Notes under the pieces: model-generated
The model's database searches: none
Told to the model about the DNA's origin: nothing
The model's input: the letters and a program-made list of their open reading frames with translations, nothing else
Made by a program: the position numbers and the translations under genes
In this document: one piece after another, positions 4,329 to 30,144 of the stretch
Layout: every line of letters begins with the position of its first letter
Numbering within the stretch: position 1 is the stretch's first letter
IMG/VR virus record: IMGVR_UViG_2734482779_000009
Reading direction: 5' to 3' (one strand)
Length of the DNA: 34,379 nt
DNA from: a virus
Taxonomy: Duplodnaviria > Heunggongvirae > Uroviricota > Caudoviricetes

Positions 4329-4859
4329 TTACTGCACATCCTGCTCAAAAGGAATTATTGAAAAATCCTCAATATCACTTTTTATGGTAATGCCGGGAAT
4401 ATTTTTCACGGCCTCTTTTTCATTCAGAATGGCATCTTTATTTATTTCCTCTTTTACACGAATAAAGCGCTCAAGCCCCAGACGTCTCAGTAGTTCAATA
4501 ACATTATCCGCTCCACGGATACTGACTGATGGCGGACGGTTTCGCCATTGCACCTCGCCGGTGGTGAGGTTAGCGAACTTCACCTTCCCGTTGCCGGTCA
4601 GTTCATCACGGTGTGCCTCACACCATGTCTGGATACCGGACTGCAGTTCTGACATGCGTTTTTTCAGGCTCTCGGTGAGCGGGGCATAACGTGCGGTGAT
4701 ATCGCCAATGGCGTCATTCATTTCTGTTTCAGCCCTGACCAGTTCACGTTGTGCGTCACCGAGCAGTCTGATGCCCTCAATGACCTCTTCGCGTGTCCCC
4801 GGTACCCAGAGTGCCGCTGCGGACTTGATACGTTTTGCCCCTTTTGTACTTTTTGCCAT
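4329..4859 (-). CDS. gam: Host-nuclease inhibitor protein Gam (Mu Gam family)
   Basis: 176 aa; close to Mu Gam as recalled (AKRIKSAAA..., ETEMNDAI, WCEA.RDELT..GKVK.ANL.TG.V.WR.RPPSVSIRG, GITVKSGIEDFSIIPFEQ). Confidence 0.85.
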   Translation of the reverse strand: MAKSTKGAKRIKSAAALWVPGTREEVIEGIRLLGDAQRELVRAETEMNDAIGDITARYAPLTESLKKRMSELQSGIQTWCEAHRDELTGNGKVKFANLTTGEVQWRNRPPSVSIRGADNVIELLRRLGLERFIRVKEEINKDAILNEKEAVKNIPGITIKSDIEDFSIIPFEQDVQ

Positions 4860-4886
4860 ATTTTATGATTTCTCCGGTTGTGCTGA

Positions 4887-5156
4887 TTACCACAAAGATT
4901 CCGGCCACACGACGCGACAGCCGTGCAGTTCGAAAACGCCCTGACGGAAATGTCCCCTGTGGTCATGACCGGTATACAGATAACTGGCTTTTCCCTGTTC
5001 AAGCATGTGCATGCAATGCGCACTCCGGGAAACGCGGATGACAGGTTTATTGCCCCTGATGGTGATGCTTTGTACATCCGTGTTCGTTGCCATAAGCGCC
5101 ATAATGGCTGACTGCACTTTGCTGATTTGCTGGTTGATACCTGTGATGGATTTCAT
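4887..5156 (-). CDS. Hypothetical early protein (89 aa) directly downstream of B
   Basis: Starts 3 nt after the B stop codon; no recognised motif. Confidence 0.4.
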   Translation of the reverse strand: MKSITGINQQISKVQSAIMALMATNTDVQSITIRGNKPVIRVSRSAHCMHMLEQGKASYLYTGHDHRGHFRQGVFELHGCRVVWPESLW

Positions 5157-5158
5157 TA

Positions 5159-6352
5159 TTAAACCCCTTTGACAACGTCAGCGTTGACCTGTGGAACCCC
5201 GATTTCAGCGGCCAGATTCATGGCGGCTATTACCAGGTTACTGACGGCCAGCGGATACAGCAGGCTGACCCTGTTTTTACGATGACTTCCCGGATTGCTC
5301 AGGCGGGCACGTATGGCATCCACTGCGCCGGCGTCCATAATGTCCGTCAGTTGTTTACCGGCCCGTTGCAGTTTGAACGTCAGAAACTCTTCAAGGTTAT
5401 TGTCGAGAGGCAGAAGTTCGACCACCTCACAGCGCTGAACGACTTCACGGACTTCCATATTGCGTTCAGACAGTTTTGTCGCCAGTTCCGGCTGGCCAAT
5501 CAGCACGATGGACAGCAGTTTTTTGAAACCGGACTCCAGCTCAAAAAAGCGTTTGAGGTGTTTCAGTGTCGGAACGGGCAGACTGTGGGCTTCCTCAATC
5601 ACCAGAACGTGGCTGAACCCCGCCTGGCTGCTGTCTTTCAGGACGCGATGCAGCTGGCGAAAGCGGGCGTCCTGACTGCGTCTGATGCTTTCCAGTGGTG
5701 CGATGGTACTGATAATGGCTTCGGCAATCGCTGCTGCCTTCAGGGTTTTCCCTTTCACATCGTTGTCTTCCATGGCGATGACGTATGGCTCGATAATAAT
5801 TACCGGCGCATTCTCGCGGTTGATACGTTCAGTCAGGTCACGGCGCAGCGTGGATTTACCCGCACCGGACTCACCGATGACAGCCATAAACCCGCCATGA
5901 CGGGCTGTCTGGTACAGCGCCTCACGCACGTAGCGAATGTCCGGGGTGGTGAACACATCATCAGAACCCTGCATGGCTTCGTCGGCGAACGGGTCACGGA
6001 AAAGACCAAACGCTTTTTTGGTTGCTGGAAATAACACCTGTTTTTTGAGTAACATATTCTCTTCCTCACTGAGGCTCGTTTTATCTGTGGTACCCGCTGT
6101 ACGGGGCGTGGCCGCGCCCTGTACAGCATCAAAACTCTTCGCTGTATCAATCCCCTGACTTTCCAGCCAGGACGCAAGACGCCGGCGCACTTCTCCGGGG
6201 CTGGTGCGGGGCCACGCGTTATGATTCACAATCTGGGCCAGCGTGGCCTCAGAAACATCGACAGCTCTCGCCACCACCGCCTGTGGAATACGGGCCTCTT
6301 TCAGTTGCTGCTTCAGTACCAGCATGTTTCCCTCCTTAGTTGCCGTTAACAA
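5159..6352 (-). CDS. B: DNA transposition protein B (AAA+ ATPase, Mu B-like)
   Basis: 397 aa; N-terminal HTH-like region; Walker A GESGAGKST; Walker B-like HVLVIEEAH; overlaps the 3' end of A by 17 nt. Confidence 0.85.
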   Translation of the reverse strand: MLTATKEGNMLVLKQQLKEARIPQAVVARAVDVSEATLAQIVNHNAWPRTSPGEVRRRLASWLESQGIDTAKSFDAVQGAATPRTAGTTDKTSLSEEENMLLKKQVLFPATKKAFGLFRDPFADEAMQGSDDVFTTPDIRYVREALYQTARHGGFMAVIGESGAGKSTLRRDLTERINRENAPVIIIEPYVIAMEDNDVKGKTLKAAAIAEAIISTIAPLESIRRSQDARFRQLHRVLKDSSQAGFSHVLVIEEAHSLPVPTLKHLKRFFELESGFKKLLSIVLIGQPELATKLSERNMEVREVVQRCEVVELLPLDNNLEEFLTFKLQRAGKQLTDIMDAGAVDAIRARLSNPGSHRKNRVSLLYPLAVSNLVIAAMNLAAEIGVPQVNADVVKGV

Positions 6353-23506: not shown

Positions 23507-23757
23507 TGAAAGAATACCGCTATTCCGGCCCGGCCAGCGGCGTCACGCTGTCGGACGGAACCGAAATCCTGCTCTGGCCGGGGAAGACTGTTTCCCTGCC
23601 GGAGGAGCATGACTACGTGAAGGTACTGGTGGCGCTGAAGCATCTGACGCCGGTATCTGAAGAAATTAAACCCGCCGGCACACCGGCTGTGCAGTCACCA
23701 AAGCGCAGGAACGGCGGTGACAGCGAGGTGAAAACGGAGGACGCCCATGTCAGCTAA
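23506..23757 (+). CDS. Hypothetical small protein (83 aa) upstream of the tail sheath
   Basis: ATG at 23506 overlapping the upstream stop; position matches Mu gp38. Confidence 0.45.
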   Translation: MKEYRYSGPASGVTLSDGTEILLWPGKTVSLPEEHDYVKVLVALKHLTPVSEEIKPAGTPAVQSPKRRNGGDSEVKTEDAHVS

Positions 23758-25174
23758 CTATCTGCATGGTCCGGAAACCATTGAGGTGGAAAACGGAGCC
23801 CGCCCGGTTAAAACGGTGAAATCTGCCGTTATTGGCCTGATTGGTACCGCCCCGATGGGGGATGTCAATACGCTGGTACAGTGCCTGTCTGAGAAAGACG
23901 CAGCGGCATTTGGCAGCCAGTTCACCGGCTTTACCATTCCGCAGGCGCTGGATGCGATTTATGACCATGGTGCAGGCACCGTTCTGGTCATTAACGTACT
24001 CGATCCGTCTGTGCATAAAACCGCTGTGGTCAGTGAGAATGTGTCGTTCGACAAGGCGACAGGCAGAGCCCGGCTGGCTAATCCGGTGGTCGCGCAGCTG
24101 GTACTGAAACCGGACAGCGACGGTCAGCCTTATGTTGAAGGTCAGGACTACTTGCTTGATGCACAGACCGGGGTGATTACTAACCTGGGCAAAAGCATTG
24201 CTGCAGATGCAACGGTGAAGGCCAGCTATAACTATGCTGATCCGACCAAAGTCACCCCGGCTGATATCATCGGTACCGTTAACGCTGCAGGCAACCGTAC
24301 CGGCATGAAGCTGCTTAACGACAGTTTTAACCTGTTTGGCTACTTCGCCAAAATCCTGATTGCTCCGGTATTCTGCACCCAGAACAGCGTCTCGGTTGAG
24401 CTTATCGCCATGGCTGAGAAACTGGGAGCAGTAACCTATATTGATGCGCCGGTTGGTACCACTTTTGCGCAGGCTCTGGCGGGACGTGGCCCGGAAGGCA
24501 CCATTAACTTTAATACCAGCTCTGACCGTGTCCGCCTGTGCTACCCGCATGTGAAGGTATATGACCCGGTGACGAACACGGAGCGTCTGGAGCCACTGAG
24601 CCAGCGTGCGGCGGGCCTGCGTGCCAAAGTCGACCTGGACAAAGGGTACTGGTGGTCATCCTCCAATCAGGAAATTCTGGGGATCACCGGCGTGGAGCGC
24701 CAGCTGTCGGCAATGATTGACGATCCGCAGAGCGAGGTGAACCTGCTTAACGAACAGGGGATCACCACGGTATTCAGCAGTTACGGCAGCGGCCTTCGTC
24801 TGTGGGGTAACCGGACGGCAGCATGGCCAACGGTCACCCATATGCGTAACTTTGAGAACGTTCGCCGCACCGGTGATGTGATCAACGAGTCCATTCGTTA
24901 CTTCAGCCAGCAGTACATCGACATGCCGATTACTCAGGCGCTGATTGATGCACTGACGGAGTCGGTCAACGCCTACGGTCGCAAAATGACTGGTGATGGT
25001 GCGGTACTGGGCTTCCGTTGCTGGTTTGATCCGGCCCGCAATCCGGAGACGGAGCTGGCCGCCGGGCACCTGTTGCTGAGCTACAAATATACGCCACCGC
25101 CGCCGCTGGAGCGACTGACGTTTGAGACTGAGATCATCTCGGAATACCTGTTAACCCTGAAAGGGGGCAACTGA
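23747..25174 (+). CDS. Contractile tail sheath protein (Mu L / P2 FI-like)
   Basis: 475 aa; RBS ACGGAGG; followed immediately by the tube gene. Confidence 0.8.
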   Translation: MSANYLHGPETIEVENGARPVKTVKSAVIGLIGTAPMGDVNTLVQCLSEKDAAAFGSQFTGFTIPQALDAIYDHGAGTVLVINVLDPSVHKTAVVSENVSFDKATGRARLANPVVAQLVLKPDSDGQPYVEGQDYLLDAQTGVITNLGKSIAADATVKASYNYADPTKVTPADIIGTVNAAGNRTGMKLLNDSFNLFGYFAKILIAPVFCTQNSVSVELIAMAEKLGAVTYIDAPVGTTFAQALAGRGPEGTINFNTSSDRVRLCYPHVKVYDPVTNTERLEPLSQRAAGLRAKVDLDKGYWWSSSNQEILGITGVERQLSAMIDDPQSEVNLLNEQGITTVFSSYGSGLRLWGNRTAAWPTVTHMRNFENVRRTGDVINESIRYFSQQYIDMPITQALIDALTESVNAYGRKMTGDGAVLGFRCWFDPARNPETELAAGHLLLSYKYTPPPPLERLTFETEIISEYLLTLKGGN

Positions 25175-25695
25175 TGTCAAAGATTGAGATAAACCGCATC
25201 ACGAATGCCAACATCTATCTGGATGGTACTAACCTGCTGGGACGGGCTGAGGAAGTTAAACTCCCCGATGTCTCCATGATTATGCAGGAACACAAGGCGC
25301 TGGGGATGGTGGGTAAGGTGGAACTCCCGGCTGGTTTTGACAAACTGGAAGGCGAAATCAAATGGAACAGCTTTTACCGCGATGCGATGCTGTCAGCCGC
25401 GAACCCGTACAGGTCGCTGGCACTGCAGTGTCGTTCCAGCGTCCAGCGCTACAGCTCGCAGGGGCTGATTGACGAAATCCCGCTGGTCACCTTCCTGACG
25501 ATTATGTTCAAGAAGAACCCGCTGGGGACGTTCAAACAGCACGAGAACGCCGAGTTCTCCAGTAGCTTCACCTGCACGTATATCAGACAGGTACTGGATG
25601 GTGAAGAGCTGCTGGAGCTGGACTATCTGGCCAACATCTTCCGCGTCGGTGGCGTTGATCAACTGACCGACTACCGCATCAATATCGGGGGCTGA
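25174..25695 (+). CDS. Tail tube protein (Mu M / P2 FII-like)
   Basis: 173 aa; ATGA overlap with the sheath gene. Confidence 0.75.
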   Translation: MSKIEINRITNANIYLDGTNLLGRAEEVKLPDVSMIMQEHKALGMVGKVELPAGFDKLEGEIKWNSFYRDAMLSAANPYRSLALQCRSSVQRYSSQGLIDEIPLVTFLTIMFKKNPLGTFKQHENAEFSSSFTCTYIRQVLDGEELLELDYLANIFRVGGVDQLTDYRINIGG

Positions 25696-25697
25696 CA

Positions 25698-25979
25698 GTG
25701 AGTGTTGAACTGACGGATAAAGGAGGTCGATGTGCAGCACTGGGCATGTCGAACGGTACGTGGTTTACCCTTCTCGATATTCCGGGGGTGGAAACCCTTT
25801 TTAATACCCGTAAAACCAATGACCCGATTGACTGCACACGTTCAAAGGCCCGCAAACTGGCCGATTTGATTGAAGCATGGGAGCCGCCCGACCACTGGTT
25901 CTCCGGCACCGGCAAATCTGAGGGAAAGGCGCTTCTCATCGCTTTCCTGCGTAACTGCAAGGGGTTTCGCACTTGCTGA
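25698..25979 (+). CDS. Hypothetical small protein (93 aa; GTG start, alternative ATG at 25746)
   Basis: Followed by a terminator-like hairpin; a strong AAGGAGG at 25719-25725 instead sits upstream of short out-of-frame ORFs, so the start is uncertain. Confidence 0.35.
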   Translation: MSVELTDKGGRCAALGMSNGTWFTLLDIPGVETLFNTRKTNDPIDCTRSKARKLADLIEAWEPPDHWFSGTGKSEGKALLIAFLRNCKGFRTC

Positions 25980-25985
25980 TATCAC

Positions 25986-26009
25986 AGGGGCTCCGGCCCC
26001 TTTCTTCTT
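25986..26009 (+). terminator. Candidate intrinsic terminator or attenuator between the tube gene region and the chaperone/tape-measure genes
   Basis: AGGGGC (25986-25991) / GCCCCT (25996-26001), loop TCCG, followed by TTTCTTCTT. Confidence 0.5.
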
Positions 26010-26077
26010 AATCTCCTTTAATATCCGTTGCGTCCACCGCCAGACATACTGCCCTGAACTTACACAGGAGCACGATC

Positions 26078-26413
26078 ATGTCACAGACCCAGCCAGATAC
26101 TTTTACGCTATCTTATCCTTTCACCACTGCTGCAGGTACCAGAATTGAACAGATTGAACTGAAACGCCTGACGGTCAAAGACCTGAAGCAGGTGCGCAAA
26201 ATCAGCAAAAACCCGGCAGACTGGGACGAACCGCTGATTGCCCGCAGTACCGGCCTTCTCCCGGAAGATCTTGACAATATGGATCTGGCTGATTACCTGC
26301 AGTTGCAGAAACGATTTCAGCTCATCACTGGGATGGGTGAGAGCAACGAAGGCGCTGACGCAGGCGCAGGGGCTGCTGGCAAGGTGGTTCAGGTTTCAGC
26401 CGGGGGAGATTGA
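26078..26413 (+). CDS. Tail assembly chaperone (lambda G / P2 E analogue)
   Basis: 111 aa; acidic; sits between tube and tape-measure genes; overlapped at its 3' end by an open alternative frame. Confidence 0.6.
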   Translation: MSQTQPDTFTLSYPFTTAAGTRIEQIELKRLTVKDLKQVRKISKNPADWDEPLIARSTGLLPEDLDNMDLADYLQLQKRFQLITGMGESNEGADAGAGAAGKVVQVSAGGD

Positions 26414-26495
26414 TGCCCTCGATACTGACGATCTGGAGATGTGGCTGGAGCAGGCTGAAGAGCAAATCAGAAGCGAGTACGGCGACAAATCGTAG
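26078..26495 (+). CDS. Putative frameshift-extended tail chaperone (GT / E+E' analogue) via a +1 or -2 shift at a G5 run
   Basis: The 0 frame (open from at least 26238 to TAG 26493-26495) overlaps the chaperone ORF; a run of five G at 26402-26406 lies just before the chaperone stop. The extension would be about 29 aa (EIDALDTDDLEMWLEQAEEQIRSEYGDKS). Confidence 0.3.
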
Positions 26496-26570
26496 CACGG
26501 ACAGCCGCCAGTGGCGGCTGTTCTGCGTTATCCCCTCACGTCTTTTCACCTTCCCCGGAGGTTAACCACT

Positions 26571-29048
26571 ATGTCGGGACAGTTTTCAGTCGGCGTTGTT
26601 ATCGGCGGGATGATTGGCAGCACATTCCGTTCTGCAATGAGCGGTACCCGCCGTGCGCTTGATTCCCTGAGCGATACCTCACGCCGCCTGCAGGAACGTC
26701 AGAACGCTTTAACCCGTGCAACAGAACGTTATGGTCAGTTGGGTTCTTCCCGGATGCAGCGTCTCAACAGCGAGCTGCTGCGGGTAAGCCGCACCATGGA
26801 GCAAATTGAACGTCAGCAGCGCCGCCTGTCAGCAGCATCAGCGACCAGTGATGCGCTGAAAGCTAACCGCATGGCGCTGTATGGTCAGGGACTTGAAGCG
26901 TATGGTATGGCACAGACTGTTTATCATACGGTTTCCCCGGCCGTTCAGCAGTCCATGTCTTTTCAGGATAAAATGATTGATATGTCGATCACCGCAAAAT
27001 ATGACAATAAAACGCGGGATGCACTTGCCGGACAGATAAAAGGCTGGGCGCTTAAATACAATCAGTATCAGGATGAGCTGCAGGAGGCGGTGGGTTCGCT
27101 CATCAGCGACAATATTGATAATGTGTCAGATATCGGTTTTCTGATGCCGGATATTGCCCGCGCGGCAACGGCAACACGCACGTCTGCTCAGGACTGGGCA
27201 AAAGTGGCCGCAGTCTGGCAAAATTCCCTGAAAGGTGCGGCCAGCGATTTTGGTGCTGTCCAGAATATTATGGCTTATGCCGGTGACCAGGGGTCATTTG
27301 AAATCCCGGATCAGGTCAAATGGATGCAGTCCCTGGCCCCAATGATGGAGGGTGTTGCCAGCGGGAAAGAGGCTGTTGCTGAAATCGGTGCCAGTCTCCA
27401 GATAGCAAAAATCGGTGCGGGCTCCACCGATGAAGCAGCCAATAACTTTAAAAACTTCCTTACCAAAATTTTTGCCCGTGATACTCAGAAACAGTTTGCT
27501 GATCTGGGTATTGATTTGCAGGGTTCTATTGCGAGTTATAAAGCTGCGGGGATCTCTCCGATTGAAGGGATGTTGAGTGTGATAGAACGTTACCTCAATG
27601 CCAAAAGCCCCGAAGCGCTGGCCGGCTTCAAATCCGCCATGAAAATAAAGAATGATACGGCAAGAGATGAGGCACTTCAGGCTCTGGCGAAAAACTTTGG
27701 TCTGGGCGATATGTTCGCGGATATGCAGGTCATGGCATTTATCCGCCCGATGCTGGCAAACATGGACAGATATCGCGAGATCCGTGCCGGTGCTCTCAGG
27801 GCAGCCGATAACGATTTGCTTGCCAGTGCGTATGATCAGCGGCTGAAATCCCCTCTTGAAGCCACCAAAGCGCTGGCAGTCAACAGTCGGGATCTGGCAA
27901 TTACGCTGGGCGATCAATTAGCCCCGTCTTTTATTTCTCTGACTCAGGAGCTGCTCCCACTCATTCAGGGGGCAAAACACTGGGTAGCGACTCACCCGCA
28001 ATTTGTCAGTGGGGCTTTTAAGCTTATCAGTGCGCTCCTTGCGATTAAGATAGCGACTATTGGTCTCAAACTGGGGCTGAATCTCCTTATTTCCCCCTTT
28101 GTAAGTGTCTGGAAAAATGCTGTTTTACTTCGGGCCAACTGGCTTCGTCTGATGCTCGCACTGGGGGAAGGCGGTAAACTCCGCTGGCTGGTGACAGGCT
28201 TTGGTGCCGTCGCCAGAGGAGCCAGAACACTGGGGGGGGTGCTCTCAGGGGGGCTGGTTCGCGGAATTATGAGCGCCGGGCGTGCCGTTCTCTGGATTGG
28301 CCGGGCGCTGATGATGAATCCCATCGGTCTCGCTATCACCGCCGTCGCGGCAGCAGCTTACCTTATCTACCGCAACTGGGGCGCGGTCAGTAGCTGGTTT
28401 AAACAGCGCTGGGCTGACATTCAGGAAGCCTTTAACGGCGGTATCGCGGGAATTGGTAAACTGCTGGTTAACTGGTCTCCGGCAGGTCTGCTTTATAAAG
28501 CCTTTGCGGCTGCGCTGAAATATCTCGGCGTTGATTTGCCGGCGAAATTCACCGACTTCGGTGGTCATCTTATTGACGGGCTGATAAATGGCATCAGAAA
28601 CAAATGGGAGTCACTGAAAACCAGCATAACCGGAATGGGTGACAGCATCAGTGACTGGTTCAGCGAAAAGCTGGGCATCCATTCACCGAGTCGCGTGTTT
28701 ATAGGCTTTGGTGACAATATCGCGCAGGGTGCCGCCATTGGCCTGCAACGGACCACTCCGCTTGCTGCACTGGCCGGGCAGCGCCTGGCCGCTGAAATGA
28801 CACCGGATGTTCCCCGTATCCCGTCGCCGGAAATCATGGCTGCCGGATATTCAGGCCGTGGTGCAACGGCAACCGGCGGTGGAGCGTCTGGCGGTATCCA
28901 GGTCAGCTTTAATCCTCAGTTTTTCCTCAATGGTAAGGAAACCGCAGCGCCTGCCGGGCTGGCTGGTGCCCTGAATATGAGCCTGCATGAGCTGGAAAAA
29001 ATGCTGGAGCGTCTGCTGGCTCAGAAACAACGTAAGGAGTACAGCTGA
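26571..29048 (+). CDS. Tail tape measure protein
   Basis: 825 aa from the ATG at 26571 (GGAGG upstream); long helical N-terminal half, hydrophobic/Gly-rich central segments. Confidence 0.8.
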   Translation: MSGQFSVGVVIGGMIGSTFRSAMSGTRRALDSLSDTSRRLQERQNALTRATERYGQLGSSRMQRLNSELLRVSRTMEQIERQQRRLSAASATSDALKANRMALYGQGLEAYGMAQTVYHTVSPAVQQSMSFQDKMIDMSITAKYDNKTRDALAGQIKGWALKYNQYQDELQEAVGSLISDNIDNVSDIGFLMPDIARAATATRTSAQDWAKVAAVWQNSLKGAASDFGAVQNIMAYAGDQGSFEIPDQVKWMQSLAPMMEGVASGKEAVAEIGASLQIAKIGAGSTDEAANNFKNFLTKIFARDTQKQFADLGIDLQGSIASYKAAGISPIEGMLSVIERYLNAKSPEALAGFKSAMKIKNDTARDEALQALAKNFGLGDMFADMQVMAFIRPMLANMDRYREIRAGALRAADNDLLASAYDQRLKSPLEATKALAVNSRDLAITLGDQLAPSFISLTQELLPLIQGAKHWVATHPQFVSGAFKLISALLAIKIATIGLKLGLNLLISPFVSVWKNAVLLRANWLRLMLALGEGGKLRWLVTGFGAVARGARTLGGVLSGGLVRGIMSAGRAVLWIGRALMMNPIGLAITAVAAAAYLIYRNWGAVSSWFKQRWADIQEAFNGGIAGIGKLLVNWSPAGLLYKAFAAALKYLGVDLPAKFTDFGGHLIDGLINGIRNKWESLKTSITGMGDSISDWFSEKLGIHSPSRVFIGFGDNIAQGAAIGLQRTTPLAALAGQRLAAEMTPDVPRIPSPEIMAAGYSGRGATATGGGASGGIQVSFNPQFFLNGKETAAPAGLAGALNMSLHELEKMLERLLAQKQRKEYS

Positions 29049-29932
29049 TGTTTGCCGTACTGGGTGATATTGAGTTTGAACTGATTACCTACTGGGACGG
29101 CTTCGAGGCCACGTTTGGCGTCGATTATGCGGAGCATGCCCGCATCGAGGGTAAACCCGGCCTGCAGTTCGTCGGCGACAGGCTGGACGAAATCCAGATA
29201 AGCCTGGTCTTCCATCAGCATTATTGTGTGCCCGACGTGGAGCTGGCGAGAGTGCGAACAGCCATGAAGGCCCATCAGGCACTGGCGCTGGTCTTCGGCA
29301 ACGGTGACTATCGCGGCTGGTTCGTGATTACCGATGTGACCGCAACCAGCGAGCAGACAGACAGCACCGGTAACGTGCTGGCTGTCAGTGCCACCGTGTC
29401 TCTCCGGGAATACACCGGTGACCCGAAAAATCCTCTGCAACCGCCGGCAATACGCAGGCAGGTTCCCGGTGCCGGGGCCGTATCTGGTGCTGTTCCATCG
29501 CCTTCCGGGGTGGCGCAGTTCGTCCGTAACGGCGTCAACTATGCGAAACAGGCGCAGTCTGTACTCCAGACCACTATCAGTGCCGTTCGGGTGGCGCAGA
29601 AAATGAAGGGTAACCCCGTTGTCGCGCTGACCCGTGTGCCGGGACTGATGAGCGGACTGGGTAATATATCCGGAGCTCTGGGGAAAAGTGTTCCGGCGTT
29701 TAATGCACTCTCTGAATCCATGCCCGATGCCATCAGTCTGGCCAGAACAGCCAGTGAGGCAGCCACGTATGTACAGCAGGCGCAGTCGGCGCTGAGTGGT
29801 GTGGACAAAAGAAATATTGCAGGTGCTCTGGATACCGTTTCCGGGCAGCTTAACGCCGCCGGCACAGCATTCAACCGCATGTCTCCGGGATTAAGTGCAA
29901 TGGCCGCCAGAATACTGACGAGGAGTGTGTGA
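29048..29932 (+). CDS. Tail/baseplate protein (P2 gpU-like N-terminal domain with C-terminal extension; related to the Mu N N-terminal region)
   Basis: 294 aa; ATGA overlap with the tape-measure stop; position between tape-measure and X/D genes. Confidence 0.55.
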   Translation: MFAVLGDIEFELITYWDGFEATFGVDYAEHARIEGKPGLQFVGDRLDEIQISLVFHQHYCVPDVELARVRTAMKAHQALALVFGNGDYRGWFVITDVTATSEQTDSTGNVLAVSATVSLREYTGDPKNPLQPPAIRRQVPGAGAVSGAVPSPSGVAQFVRNGVNYAKQAQSVLQTTISAVRVAQKMKGNPVVALTRVPGLMSGLGNISGALGKSVPAFNALSESMPDAISLARTASEAATYVQQAQSALSGVDKRNIAGALDTVSGQLNAAGTAFNRMSPGLSAMAARILTRSV

Positions 29933-30144
29933 TGTTTCTTGAACATATTACCCGTGACGGAGAGCGCTGGGATTCGCTGGCATGGCAGTACTACGGTGAC
30001 CCGCTGGGCTATCCCCGGATTATTGCAGCCAATCCGCACGTGGCCATTACGCCGGTGCTGCCCTCCGGGTTGTTGTTACTGATCCCGGTTATTGAGGCTG
30101 AAGATGCCCGTACAGAAGAGGATATTGCCCCATGGCTGAGATAA
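29932..30144 (+). CDS. Tail protein X (P2 gpX-like, LysM-like)
   Basis: 70 aa; GERWDSLAWQYYGDPLGYPRIIAANPHVAITPVLPSGLLLLIP matches the gpX/LysM-like pattern; AGGAG RBS. Confidence 0.6.
   Translation: MFLEHITRDGERWDSLAWQYYGDPLGYPRIIAANPHVAITPVLPSGLLLLIPVIEAEDARTEEDIAPWLR

What the first reader, a model, noticed from the sequence alone, without database searches (positions are those of the whole stretch)
26078..26495. Candidate programmed frameshift in the tail assembly chaperone at a G5 run
A second frame overlaps the chaperone and stays open to 26495, just before the tape-measure gene. The run GGGGG at 26402..26406 sits 5 nt before the chaperone stop and could let tRNA-Gly slip +1 (or -2), adding about 29 aa. 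Chaperone frameshifting is conserved across long-tailed phages, but here the direction is not the common -1 and the extension is unusually short, so this may be a variant mechanism or an artefact.
Basis: partly seen in the sequence, partly recalled or inferred. Interest (0 to 1): 0.45.

Follow-up and report, generated by a model that had tools for sequence, protein, structure and literature searches.

The report
Tail chaperone +1 frameshift, relocated upstream

Summary
The chaperone ORF is 26078-26413. The +1/-2 frame stays open to the TAG at 26493-26495, and GGGGG sits at 26402-26406. The proposed slip site is not supported. Among 94 distinct relatives the G5 run is present in 59, and in 46 the chaperone stop lies upstream of that position. 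The G5 simply encodes Pro-Gly-Glu of the second protein. The +1 frame encodes a conserved homologue of the P2 gpE' domain (Pfam PF06528), and its conserved core (LLARWFRFQP) starts upstream of the G5. The shift must lie where both frames are open in every relative, a window of about 10 codons (26307-26336). The only conserved slippery motif there is CGA_UUU_C (26312-26318). TTT followed by C is present in every +1-type locus examined, across Enterobacterales, Burkholderia, Pseudomonas, Ralstonia and Crenobacter. Both wobble bases are frozen, whereas every other conserved codon varies. In two tandem-domain chaperones only the copy that precedes E' has CGA TTT C; the other copy has TTC A. The best model is a +1 slip of tRNA-Phe from UUU to UUC, giving a 138-aa gpE+E' analogue with a 58-aa extension. 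UUU_Y is a known +1-prone site. No experiment supports the model yet. RefSeq and the phage records I checked do not annotate it.

The parts
26078..26413 (+). Tail assembly chaperone ORF, the gpE / Mu gp41 analogue; 111-aa frame-0 product
   Evidence: ORF list. Pfam PF10109 Phage_TAC_7 E=2.5e-22 over residues 8-81. It lies between the tube gene (25174-25695, PF04985) and the tape-measure gene (26571-29048, PF10145). AlphaFold2 with a 22-sequence alignment gives an ordered domain up to about residue 87 with a last helix at 70-84; residues 88-111 have pLDDT below 50.
26312..26318 (+). CGA_UUU_C: proposed +1 frameshift cassette (Arg79, Phe80, first base of codon 81); tRNA-Phe re-pairs from UUU 26315-26317 to UUC 26316-26318
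   Evidence: All 7 nt are invariant in a 36-locus alignment. TTT+C is present in 94/94 and CGA in 90/94 distinct relatives. The controls show every other conserved codon varying at the wobble base, and the other Arg positions using CGC/CGT. TTT_C is kept in the BcepMu, Pseudomonas, Ralstonia and Crenobacter clades. In tandem-domain chaperones only the E'-proximal copy has CGA TTT C. It is the only in-frame CGA_TTT_C in the tail genes.
26319..26495 (+). E'-like extension read in the +1 frame: 58 codons (SSSLGWVRATKALTQAQGLLARWFRFQPGEIDALDTDDLEMWLEQAEEQIRSEYGDKS) plus TAG
   Evidence: The peptide is conserved in the +1 frame in all relatives. phrog_8286 E=2.5e-27. Pfam PF06528 Phage_P2_GpE gives E=0.011-0.025 for this window, and 12 of 14 relatives match with a best E of 6.4e-6. 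hhalign against P2 E' gives probability 84.5%, E=6.9e-6. The wobble-like variation phase switches to this frame at about 26318-26345.
26402..26406 (+).
   Evidence: One search gives the counts: GGGGG in 59/94, chaperone stop upstream of it in 46/94, inside the ORF in 27/94. Relatives carry CCG AGT GAG and similar.
26571..29048 (+). Tape measure protein gene, the presumed client of the chaperone; GGAGG at 26557-26561 precedes the ATG
   Evidence: Pfam PF10145 E=9.4e-21. Annotated as a tape measure protein in the nearest records.
25174..25695 (+). Tail tube gene (P2 FII type), the likely binding partner of the E' domain by analogy with lambda gpGT and gpV
   Evidence: Pfam PF04985 E=6.7e-54. The functional link is an inference from the lambda model described in PMC5009743.

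Best explanation
The chaperone gene makes two proteins. Most ribosomes read frame 0 and make the 111-aa chaperone, whose ordered domain covers roughly residues 4-87. A minority shift +1 at CGA_UUU_C. With UUU (26315-26317) in the P site, tRNA-Phe (anticodon GAA) re-pairs with UUC (26316-26318), and decoding continues at AGC (26319) to the TAG at 26493-26495. The result is a 138-aa protein made of chaperone residues 1-80 plus a 58-aa gpE'-like domain. By analogy with lambda gpG/gpGT and P2 gpE/gpE+E', the shared N-terminal part binds the tape-measure protein and the extension recruits the tube protein, so the frameshift frequency sets the ratio of the two products. Shown here: the two frames, the homology of both parts, the conservation pattern and the bounds on the site. 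Inferred: the slip itself, its direction as +1 rather than -2, its efficiency, any stimulatory role of the CGA codon (I:A wobble in the E or P site), and the functions of the two products.
For: 1. Gene context is a P2-type tail module in the order sheath, tube, chaperone, tape measure, gpU, gpX, in a BcepMu-like prophage.
2. The +1 frame encodes a conserved peptide in all 38 genome loci, 80 IMG/VR loci and the distant clades; the -1 frame is junk.
3. That peptide is a gpE' homologue. PF06528 matches 12 of 14 relatives (best E 6.4e-6), hhalign against P2 E' gives 84.5%, and BLASTP of the modelled 138-aa product against P2 gpE+E' gives one colinear alignment across the junction.
4. Bounds on the site. 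The +1 frame opens only 3 codons 5' of TTC in the Ralstonia and Pseudomonas clades. The frame-0 stop comes 7 codons after TTT in Crenobacter, and 11 codons after it in a common E. coli variant with a 90-aa chaperone.
5. Inside those bounds TTT_C is the only motif conserved, and it was present in every +1-type locus inspected: 94/94 distinct Enterobacterales-type segments plus the BcepMu and Pseudomonas clades.
6. Synonymous sites are frozen: CGA in 89/90 and TTT in 90/90, while all other conserved residues use mixed codons. BcepMu tail genes otherwise use TTC 88 times and TTT 17 times.
7. Internal control: in two tandem-domain chaperones the structurally equivalent Phe of the first copy is TTC+A, and only the copy next to E' is CGA TTT C.
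8. The wobble-phase change point lies at 26297-26345. The G5 position scores 14 units worse.
9. UUU_Ynn is documented as especially +1-prone in bacteria and is used in YopN-TyeA (PMC5009743). UCC_UUU_CGU is the influenza PA-X +1 site (PMC3498833).
10. A 1.84-billion-protein scan finds the chaperone and E' parts essentially only as separate ORFs, so relatives also need recoding.
Against: There is no experimental evidence: no peptide, reporter or ribosome-profiling data. In-frame TTT_C is a common tetranucleotide (5 in this window's tail genes, 8 in BcepMu's), so the motif alone cannot give a high rate. No conserved stimulator was found: no downstream RNA structure, no conserved SD-like sequence seen by eye in the aligned sequences upstream of the site (no formal scan was run), and no rare or stop codon in the A site (CAG here). 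CGA is not kept in the BcepMu, Pseudomonas or Crenobacter clades, where the preceding codon is TCC, GCC, GTG or ACG. Phe80 is also a structural residue of the last helix, so part of its conservation is at the protein level. Frame-0 residues 81-85 (Q-x-hydrophobic-T-G) also look selected, and the phase change point peaks at 26333, so a slip a few codons 3' of TTT cannot be strictly excluded for the enterobacterial clade on that evidence alone. The bounds assume that one homologous site is shared by all clades.
Confidence: 0.72

Rival explanations
1. One reading: tRNA-Gly slips +1 (GGG to GGG) or -2 (GGA to GGG) on the G5 run at 26402-26406 and adds 28-29 aa. This resembles the verified -2 shift of phage Mu, which also occurs on a G5 run.
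For: The run is in the right frame geometry: GCC GGG GGA GAT TGA, with the rare GGA codon and then a nearby stop. Mu's verified -2 site is CGG GGG CGA, 24 nt before the gp41 stop. One-base-shorter G4 versions of this run create in-frame 138-aa ORFs in some assemblies (P0001-P0004; L015), so the tract is indel-prone.
Against: The run is not conserved: it is absent in 35/94, downstream of the chaperone stop in 46/94, and usable in only 27/94. The product would lack LLARWFRFQP, the best-conserved part of the E' domain, which is encoded upstream in the +1 frame and lies wholly 3' of the chaperone stop in the Crenobacter, Symbiopectobacterium and 104-aa or 90-aa variants. Selection is already on the +1 frame 60-90 nt before the run. 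G5 runs are common in this window (32).
Confidence: 0.04
2. There is no frameshift. The +1 ORF is a separate small gene translated from its own start codon, as gene callers and the BcepMu record (gp42) treat it.
For: Gene callers emit such ORFs: phrog_8286, 33-73-aa E'-only proteins in the representative library, and BcepMu gp42 with an ATG. This window has TTG at 26238 and GTG at 26337 in that frame.
Against: No start codon is conserved in the +1 frame. The codon after the conserved Trp is GTG, GCA, CTG, ATC or TTA in different relatives. In the Ralstonia and Pseudomonas clades the frame opens just 3 codons before TTC. This model gives no reason for the frozen CGA TTT C wobble bases or for the TTC-versus-TTT contrast in tandem-domain genes. 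The homologous P2 E' is made only as a fusion (record annotation; Christie et al. 2002, from my own knowledge).
Confidence: 0.07
3. A +1 (or -2) frameshift does occur but at another position in the overlap, for example GGG_A at 26330-26333 (just before the invariant +1-frame Trp) or GGG_G at 26369-26372, possibly at different sites in different lineages.
For: The phase change point is broad (26297-26345) with its optimum at 26333. Frame-0 Gly85 is nearly invariant and the +1-frame TGG at 26334-26336 is invariant. GGG_N allows tRNA-Gly re-pairing in this window.
Against: The Gly85 codon is GGT C, GGC C, GGC G, GGA T or AGC in several relatives, which gives no re-pairing. GGGG at 26369 becomes GGGA or GGCG in others, and lies 3' of the stop in the 90-aa variant and in Crenobacter. 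In the BcepMu and Pseudomonas clades the +1-frame Trp is only 3 codons after TTT, leaving TTT_C as the sole site with cognate re-pairing. This model does not explain the frozen CGA TTT wobble bases.
Confidence: 0.12
4. The shifted product arises at the nucleic-acid level, either by transcriptional slippage or by a heritable indel (phase variation) in a homopolymer, rather than on the ribosome.
For: G4 variants of the G5 run exist in public assemblies and fuse the frames.
Against: TTT and G5 are much shorter than the A/T runs of about 7-9 bases used for programmed transcriptional slippage (my own knowledge; the Shigella examples are in PMC5009743). The G-run variants are rare compared with the hundreds of contigs carrying G5, and they fuse at the wrong place, omitting LLARWFRFQP. 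They most simply reflect homopolymer errors or decaying prophages such as the one in Erwinia tracheiphila.
Confidence: 0.03

Closest known systems
Phage P2 gpE / gpE+E' (FETUD operon; -1 frameshift)
   Same: Same position in the same type of tail module, between tube gene FII and tape-measure gene T. The N-terminal domain belongs to the same Pfam family (PF10109). The extension is homologous to E' (PF06528; hhalign 84.5%). The products are nearly the same size (138 vs 142 aa). The slip falls on a Phe codon at the end of the chaperone domain in both (P2: GGT TTT TTG, Phe84).
   Different: P2 shifts -1 on the heptamer U_UUU_UUG and its E' lies in the -1 frame. Here E' lies in the +1 frame and the conserved motif is CGA_UUU_C. 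Here frame 0 also runs on for 31 further codons of low-complexity, predicted-disordered tail, against 6 in P2.
Phage Mu gp41 / Mu_56 (verified -2 frameshift)
   Same: A transposable myophage with a chaperone listed in the same Pfam family description ('E, or 41 or 14'). The extension is in the +1/-2 frame, just upstream of the tape-measure gene.
   Different: In this family the G5 run is not conserved and often lies outside the ORF. The conserved site allows +1 re-pairing but not -2 re-pairing. The extension here is gpE'-like; I did not test the Mu extension for homology.
Phage lambda gpG / gpGT
   Same: The same logic: two products sharing an N-terminus, made between the major tail gene and the tape-measure gene at a ratio fixed by the frameshift frequency; neither product is in the virion (PMC5009743).
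   Different: No sequence similarity was detected. Lambda shifts -1 on G_GGA_AAG and belongs to a siphovirus tail.
UUU_Ynn +1 shift-prone sites (E. coli argI, Yersinia YopN-TyeA) and influenza A PA-X (UCC_UUU_CGU)
   Same: The same core event is proposed: tRNA-Phe slips from UUU to UUY with no need for a stop codon. BcepMu itself reads UCC_UUU_CGC, which matches 8 of the 9 nt of the influenza cassette.
   Different: Those cases are not in phage tail genes. A conserved 5' CGA codon has not, to my knowledge, been described as part of such a site. PA-X relies on a codon that is rare in the host (CGU), whereas here the A-site codon is the common CAG.
BcepMu gp41 / gp42 / gp43 as annotated in AY539836
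   Same: The direct homologue of this locus in the type phage of the genus: gp41 is the chaperone, and gp42 is the +1-frame ORF that contains the E'-like peptide.
   Different: The record treats gp42 as the lambda-G analogue, with gp43 as its slippage-produced C-terminus. The homology found here instead points to gp41 plus gp42 being joined by a +1 shift at UCC_UUU_CGC, and gp43 has no support.

Membership tests
Frameshifted tail assembly chaperone pair (lambda G/GT type, sensu Xu, Hendrix & Duda 2004) | The gene lies between the major tail/tube gene and the tape-measure gene | tested here: met
   Tube 25174-25695, chaperone 26078-26413, tape measure 26571-29048.
Frameshifted tail assembly chaperone pair (lambda G/GT type, sensu Xu, Hendrix & Duda 2004) | A second ORF overlaps the 3' end in another frame, has no conserved start of its own, and ends just before the tape-measure gene | tested here: met
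   The +1 frame is open to 26495 and is conserved in all relatives. No start codon is conserved, and in two clades the frame opens only 3 codons before the site.
Frameshifted tail assembly chaperone pair (lambda G/GT type, sensu Xu, Hendrix & Duda 2004) | A conserved slippery sequence lies inside the overlap | tested here: met
TTT_C is universal, and CGA_TTT_C is in 90/94, with frozen wobble bases.
Frameshifted tail assembly chaperone pair (lambda G/GT type, sensu Xu, Hendrix & Duda 2004) | The fused product is actually made and is required for tail assembly | not testable with these tools
   This needs mass spectrometry, reporter assays or genetics.
P2 gpE / gpE+E' family | N-terminal chaperone domain PF10109 | tested here: met
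   E=2.5e-22, 79.1 bits against a cut-off of 25.
P2 gpE / gpE+E' family | C-terminal extension homologous to gpE' (PF06528) | tested here: inconclusive
   The window peptide alone is below threshold (14.5-15.7 bits against 23; E 0.011-0.025). However, 12 of 14 relatives match (best E 6.4e-6), hhalign of the family profile against P2 E' gives probability 84.5%, E 6.9e-6, and BLASTP is colinear across the junction. Homology is likely, but Pfam's gathering threshold is not reached for this sequence.
P2 gpE / gpE+E' family | A -1 frameshift on U_UUU_UUG | tested here: not met
   E' is in the +1 frame, no heptamer is present, and the -1 frame has no family match. One relative, Pasteurella phage AFS-2018a, does carry E' in the -1 frame with A_AAG_GGA.
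Mu-type -2 frameshift on a G run | The extension is in the +1/-2 frame | tested here: met
Mu-type -2 frameshift on a G run | A G-run slip site is conserved inside the overlap among relatives | tested here: not met
   G5 is inside the ORF in only 27/94; GGGG at 26369 is also variable.
UUU_Ynn +1 shift sites | An in-frame UUU codon followed by a pyrimidine, allowing cognate re-pairing of tRNA-Phe in the +1 frame | tested here: met
   TTT CAG at 26315-26320; 94/94 relatives plus the distant clades.
UUU_Ynn +1 shift sites | Measured +1 frameshifting at the site | not testable with these tools
   No expression data are available here.

The most novel reading that the evidence does not exclude
CGA_UUU_C is a dedicated bacterial +1 recoding cassette. 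The I:A wobble pair formed on the rare CGA codon, in the E site or in the P site one step earlier, destabilises frame maintenance so that tRNA-Phe takes UUC instead of UUU. This would give a fixed low rate of +1 frameshifting without a stop codon, a hungry codon, a Shine-Dalgarno stimulator or an RNA structure. It would have replaced the -1 heptamer of P2-type phages at the homologous Phe codon, and it would be present, unannotated, in about 12% of complete E. coli genomes.
Probability: 0.35. Interest if true: 0.65.

Novelty: new variant of a known kind. Interest (0 to 1): 0.5.

Why it matters
Frameshifted tail chaperones are a textbook case of recoding. Most known cases are -1, Mu is the one verified -2 case, and +1 cases are mostly unverified annotations. 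This analysis places a gpE/gpE' homologue in the +1 class and proposes a precise, testable site. The element is common: 637 of 5,426 complete E. coli genomes carry close relatives, and it also occurs in Salmonella, Klebsiella, Burkholderia and Pseudomonas phages. The annotated records checked (one RefSeq E. coli genome, phage PhiKM and BcepMu) do not show the long product, or assign it wrongly. If the CGA codon proves to be stimulatory, it would give a minimal bacterial +1 signal, useful both for understanding how the reading frame is maintained and for predicting recoding. For annotation, the practical gains are a rule for this family (join at R-F | +1) and a warning that a G-run near a stop codon is not enough evidence for a slip site.

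Tried and rejected
1. G5 (26402) as the slip site: rejected on conservation and on ORF geometry.
2. GGGG at 26369-26372 and GGG_A at 26330-26333: not conserved, and outside the ORF in some relatives.
3. The -1 frame: open to 26565, but the peptide has no family match and is not conserved.
4. A -2 slip near TTT: no re-pairing is possible (it would need GAU or UUC to pair with the wrong tRNAs). This comes from reading the sequence.
5. A downstream stimulatory RNA structure: RNAalifold on 12 diverse relatives gave -3.65 kcal/mol and no covariation. The single-sequence fold of 26300-26430 had z = -0.52.
6. An upstream SD-like stimulator: none is conserved by eye in the aligned sequences; no formal scan was run. 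Only the Pseudomonas clade has GAGGUG directly 5' of UUU.
7. NCBIfam gave no hit for either product.
8. The Xu et al. 2004 paper could not be read because it is not held. Its Mu result is taken from the GenBank note and from reviews.
Only the 111-aa chaperone was modelled.
10. Natural in-frame chaperone-E' fusions that would show the junction: the 1.84-billion-protein scan found only separate ORFs, tandem chaperone duplications, and a few indel-derived fusions.
11. Literature searches for an earlier description of a +1 shift in BcepMu-like chaperones found none in the held library. This is not proof that no such description exists.

Full report
**1. What is in the sequence**

The region belongs to a P2-type contractile-tail module. 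The genes are sheath 23747-25174 (PF04984/PF17482), tube 25174-25695 (PF04985), a 93-aa ORF, a 111-aa ORF at 26078-26413, tape measure 26571-29048 (PF10145), gpU 29048-29932 and gpX 29929-30144. The 111-aa ORF matches Pfam PF10109 'Phage tail assembly chaperone proteins, E, or 41 or 14' at E=2.5e-22. The nearest phage record is Escherichia phage PhiKM (genus Bcepmuvirus, 93.5% identity). Close copies occur in 637 of 5,426 complete E. coli genomes.

The frame at +1/-2 relative to the chaperone is open from 26238 to the TAG at 26493-26495. GGGGG occupies 26402-26406, read as GCC GGG GGA GAT TGA. G5 runs are frequent here, with 32 on this strand. Neither RefSeq nor the PhiKM record annotates a second product.

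**2. The +1 frame encodes a real, conserved domain**

I collected three sets of loci:
- 38 loci from one-genome-per-species bacterial assemblies;
- 80 from IMG/VR;
- phage records and the more distant BcepMu and Pseudomonas clades.

In all but one of the relatives examined, the frame +1 to the chaperone encodes a conserved peptide ending shortly before the tape-measure gene, with the pattern ...LLARWFRFQP(S/G)E(I/L)D.L..(D/E)E(L/F)..W...A..QIK... The -1 frame is not conserved.

The peptide is a homologue of the P2 gpE' extension. The evidence:
- The window peptide hits PF06528 'Phage P2 GpE' below threshold (E 0.011-0.025).
- 12 of 14 diverse relatives hit it, with a best E of 6.4e-6.
- A profile of the family aligns with P2 E' at 84.5% probability, E 6.9e-6.

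One relative, Pasteurella phage AFS-2018a, carries the same domain in the -1 frame behind a canonical A_AAG_GGA heptamer. A scan of 1.84 billion representative proteins finds the two parts almost only as separate ORFs. So a recoding event that joins chaperone and E' is strongly indicated, as in P2, where a -1 site is annotated, and in Mu, where the record notes a verified -2 shift.

**3. The G5 run is not the site**

The conserved core LLARWFRFQP is encoded upstream of the G5 run, which simply supplies the codons CCG GGG GAG (Pro-Gly-Glu). Among 94 distinct relatives:
- 35 lack the run, mostly carrying CCG AGT GAG (Pro-Ser-Glu);
- in 46 the chaperone's own stop codon lies upstream of that position;
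- only 27 have a G5 inside the ORF.

In a common E. coli variant the chaperone stops after 90 codons (P0035, seen on 914 contigs; L061/L062). In Crenobacter it stops 7 codons after Phe80. In the Symbiopectobacterium/Arsenophonus group it stops before the whole LLARWF motif.

Column-wise variability shows the usual third-position pattern in frame 0 up to about 26311 and in the +1 frame from about 26318-26345 onward. A two-state change-point score is 49.5-52.4 across 26297-26345 and only 38.0 at 26402. The resemblance to Mu's G5 site (CGG GGG CGA) is therefore coincidental.

**4. Where the shift most likely occurs**

A shared site must lie where both frames are open in all lineages. The +1 frame opens only 3 codons 5' of the TTC triplet in the Ralstonia and Pseudomonas clades and in a tandem-domain metagenomic relative. 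Frame 0 closes 7 codons 3' of TTT in Crenobacter. That leaves about 10 codons, corresponding to window 26307-26336. Within it the only conserved feature is CGA TTT C (26312-26318; Arg79-Phe80).
- All seven bases are invariant in the 36-locus alignment.
- TTT followed by C occurs in 94/94 distinct Enterobacterales-type sequences, and CGA precedes it in 90/94.
- The BcepMu clade has TCC/GCC/TCT TTT CGC/CGT. The Pseudomonas clade has GTG TTT CGG. Others have ACG TTT CTG or ACG TTT CAA.

Two controls argue that the constraint is on the RNA and not only on the protein.
- In the same 90 sequences, every other residue conserved at 90% or more uses mixed synonymous codons. The other conserved Arg positions are CGC/CGT. 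Arg79 is CGA in 89/90 and Phe80 is TTT in 90/90.
- BcepMu tail genes otherwise prefer TTC 88:17.

The sharpest control comes from two chaperones with tandemly duplicated domains. The structurally equivalent Phe of the first copy is GCG TTC AAT or TAT TTC ATG. The copy adjacent to E' is CGA TTT CAG or CGA TTT CTG.

In addition, a Trp 3-6 residues after the Phe is nearly invariant in the +1 frame across clades. This leaves TTT_C as the only position with cognate re-pairing upstream of it.

**5. Mechanism proposed**

tRNA-Phe (anticodon GAA) decoding UUU in the P site re-pairs with the overlapping UUC, which pairs more strongly (G:C instead of G:U). Decoding resumes at AGC (26319). The product is 80 + 58 = 138 aa, against 142 aa for P2 gpE+E'. 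The two align colinearly across the junction. In P2 the slip also falls on the Phe codon at the end of the chaperone domain (GGT TTT TTG).

AlphaFold2 of the 111-aa product predicts an ordered domain ending with helix 70-84 and a disordered tail at 88-111. This fits the dispensability of that tail in the 90-aa and 104-aa variants.

UUU_Ynn is described as 'especially prone to +1 frameshifting' in bacteria even without a stop codon, and as the YopN-TyeA site (PMC5009743). UCC_UUU_CGU is the mass-spectrometry-verified +1 site of influenza PA-X (PMC3498833), and BcepMu reads UCC_UUU_CGC. Tail-chaperone frameshifts in the -1, -2 and +1 directions are all on record (PMC5009743; 350 forward cases annotated in SEA-PHAGES, PMC10885494).

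The role of CGA is an inference. CGA is read through an I:A wobble pair, and from my own knowledge that pair is decoded inefficiently and weakly held, which could loosen the E-site tRNA or distort the P site. I found no other stimulator. In-frame TTT_C occurs elsewhere in the tail genes, so the efficiency is probably low. A low rate would be enough: the lambda G:GT ratio is about 30:1 (PMC5009743).

**6. Function**

By analogy with lambda and P2, not tested here, the short and long products share a domain that binds the tape-measure protein, and the extension binds the tube protein. The frameshift rate then sets their ratio, and neither protein ends up in the virion.

**7. Known or new**

The kind of system is well known. 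What appears not to be annotated or described, in the records and the library I could search, is that the BcepMu-like gpE/gpE' pair is joined by a +1 shift at a conserved (CGA_)UUU_C. The BcepMu record instead proposes gp42/gp43 as the G/T pair, and the KS10 paper reports finding no site. I rate it a new variant of a known kind, of moderate interest, and entirely dependent on experimental confirmation.

**8. Caveats**
- No expression data exist for this locus.
- The bounds assume a single homologous site across clades.
- Phe80 is also structurally conserved.
- Frame-0 residues 81-85 appear selected too, as expected if both products are made, so variability phase alone cannot place the site to the codon.
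- The literature search covered only the held library.

Noticed in passing
window 25986-26011: A terminator-like hairpin (AGGGGC-TCCG-GCCCCT) followed by TTCTTCTTAA lies just after the 93-aa ORF and 67 nt before the chaperone start. It could lower expression of the chaperone and tape-measure genes relative to sheath and tube.
   Followed up: partly
window 26501-26521: A perfect 9-bp GC-rich hairpin (ACAGCCGCC-AGT-GGCGGCTGT) sits 6 nt after the E' stop codon and 50 nt before the tape-measure ATG. It has no T-run, so the scan did not call it a terminator. It may be an mRNA-stability or processing element.
   Followed up: no
window 28232-28239 and 28248-28253: G8 and G6 homopolymer runs lie inside the tape-measure coding sequence (…CTG GGG GGG GTG CTC TCA GGG GGG CTG…). 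These tracts are prone to indels or sequencing errors in an essential gene.
   Followed up: no
window 25698-25979: A 93-aa ORF sits between the tube and chaperone genes. It has only a weak sub-threshold DUF7739 match (E=3.7e-5, 24.7 bits against a cut-off of 27) and is conserved as 'hypothetical protein' in the E. coli and PhiKM records. P2 has no gene at this position.
   Followed up: no
L042 (BcepMu AY539836) 4603-5364: The GenBank annotation of BcepMu gp42 as the lambda-G analogue, with gp43 as its slippage-derived C-terminus, looks wrong. gp42 is the +1-frame gpE'-like extension of gp41, and gp43 has no homology support.
   Followed up: yes
L006 (NZ_PJIO01000028.1, 'Arthrobacter sp. GMC3', 8,241-bp contig) = IMG/VR L059: An actinobacterial assembly carries a contig whose chaperone gene is 93% identical at the protein level to this E. 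coli-type prophage chaperone. This is most likely contamination of that assembly.
   Followed up: no
P0001-P0004, P0008, P0009; L015 Erwinia tracheiphila and L030 Apirhabdus: Public assemblies contain in-frame 138-142-aa 'fused' ORFs created by 1-nt indels: G5 to G4 at the window-26402 equivalent, or deletions further upstream. These are probably homopolymer errors or decaying prophages. They join the frames at non-homologous points and could mislead annotation.
   Followed up: partly
L153, L154 and P0122-P0135: Some relatives encode chaperones with two tandem PF10109 domains (about 180-220 aa) followed by the same +1-frame E'. I have not seen this duplicated tail-chaperone architecture described.
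   Followed up: partly
window, whole: Homopolymer content is strongly asymmetric. T6/A6 runs cluster at 0.8-12.9 kb, and most of the 32 + strand G5 runs lie between 15.9 and 32 kb. This suggests a compositional boundary between the early and late (structural) halves of the prophage.
   Followed up: no
Literature (PMC5581363): Bg_9562, the 'prophage tail-like protein' reported as a secreted antifungal effector of Burkholderia gladioli, is a Phage_TAC_7 (PF10109) protein, so it belongs to this same tail-chaperone family. Whether its gene also carries a frameshifted E' extension was not examined.
   Followed up: no
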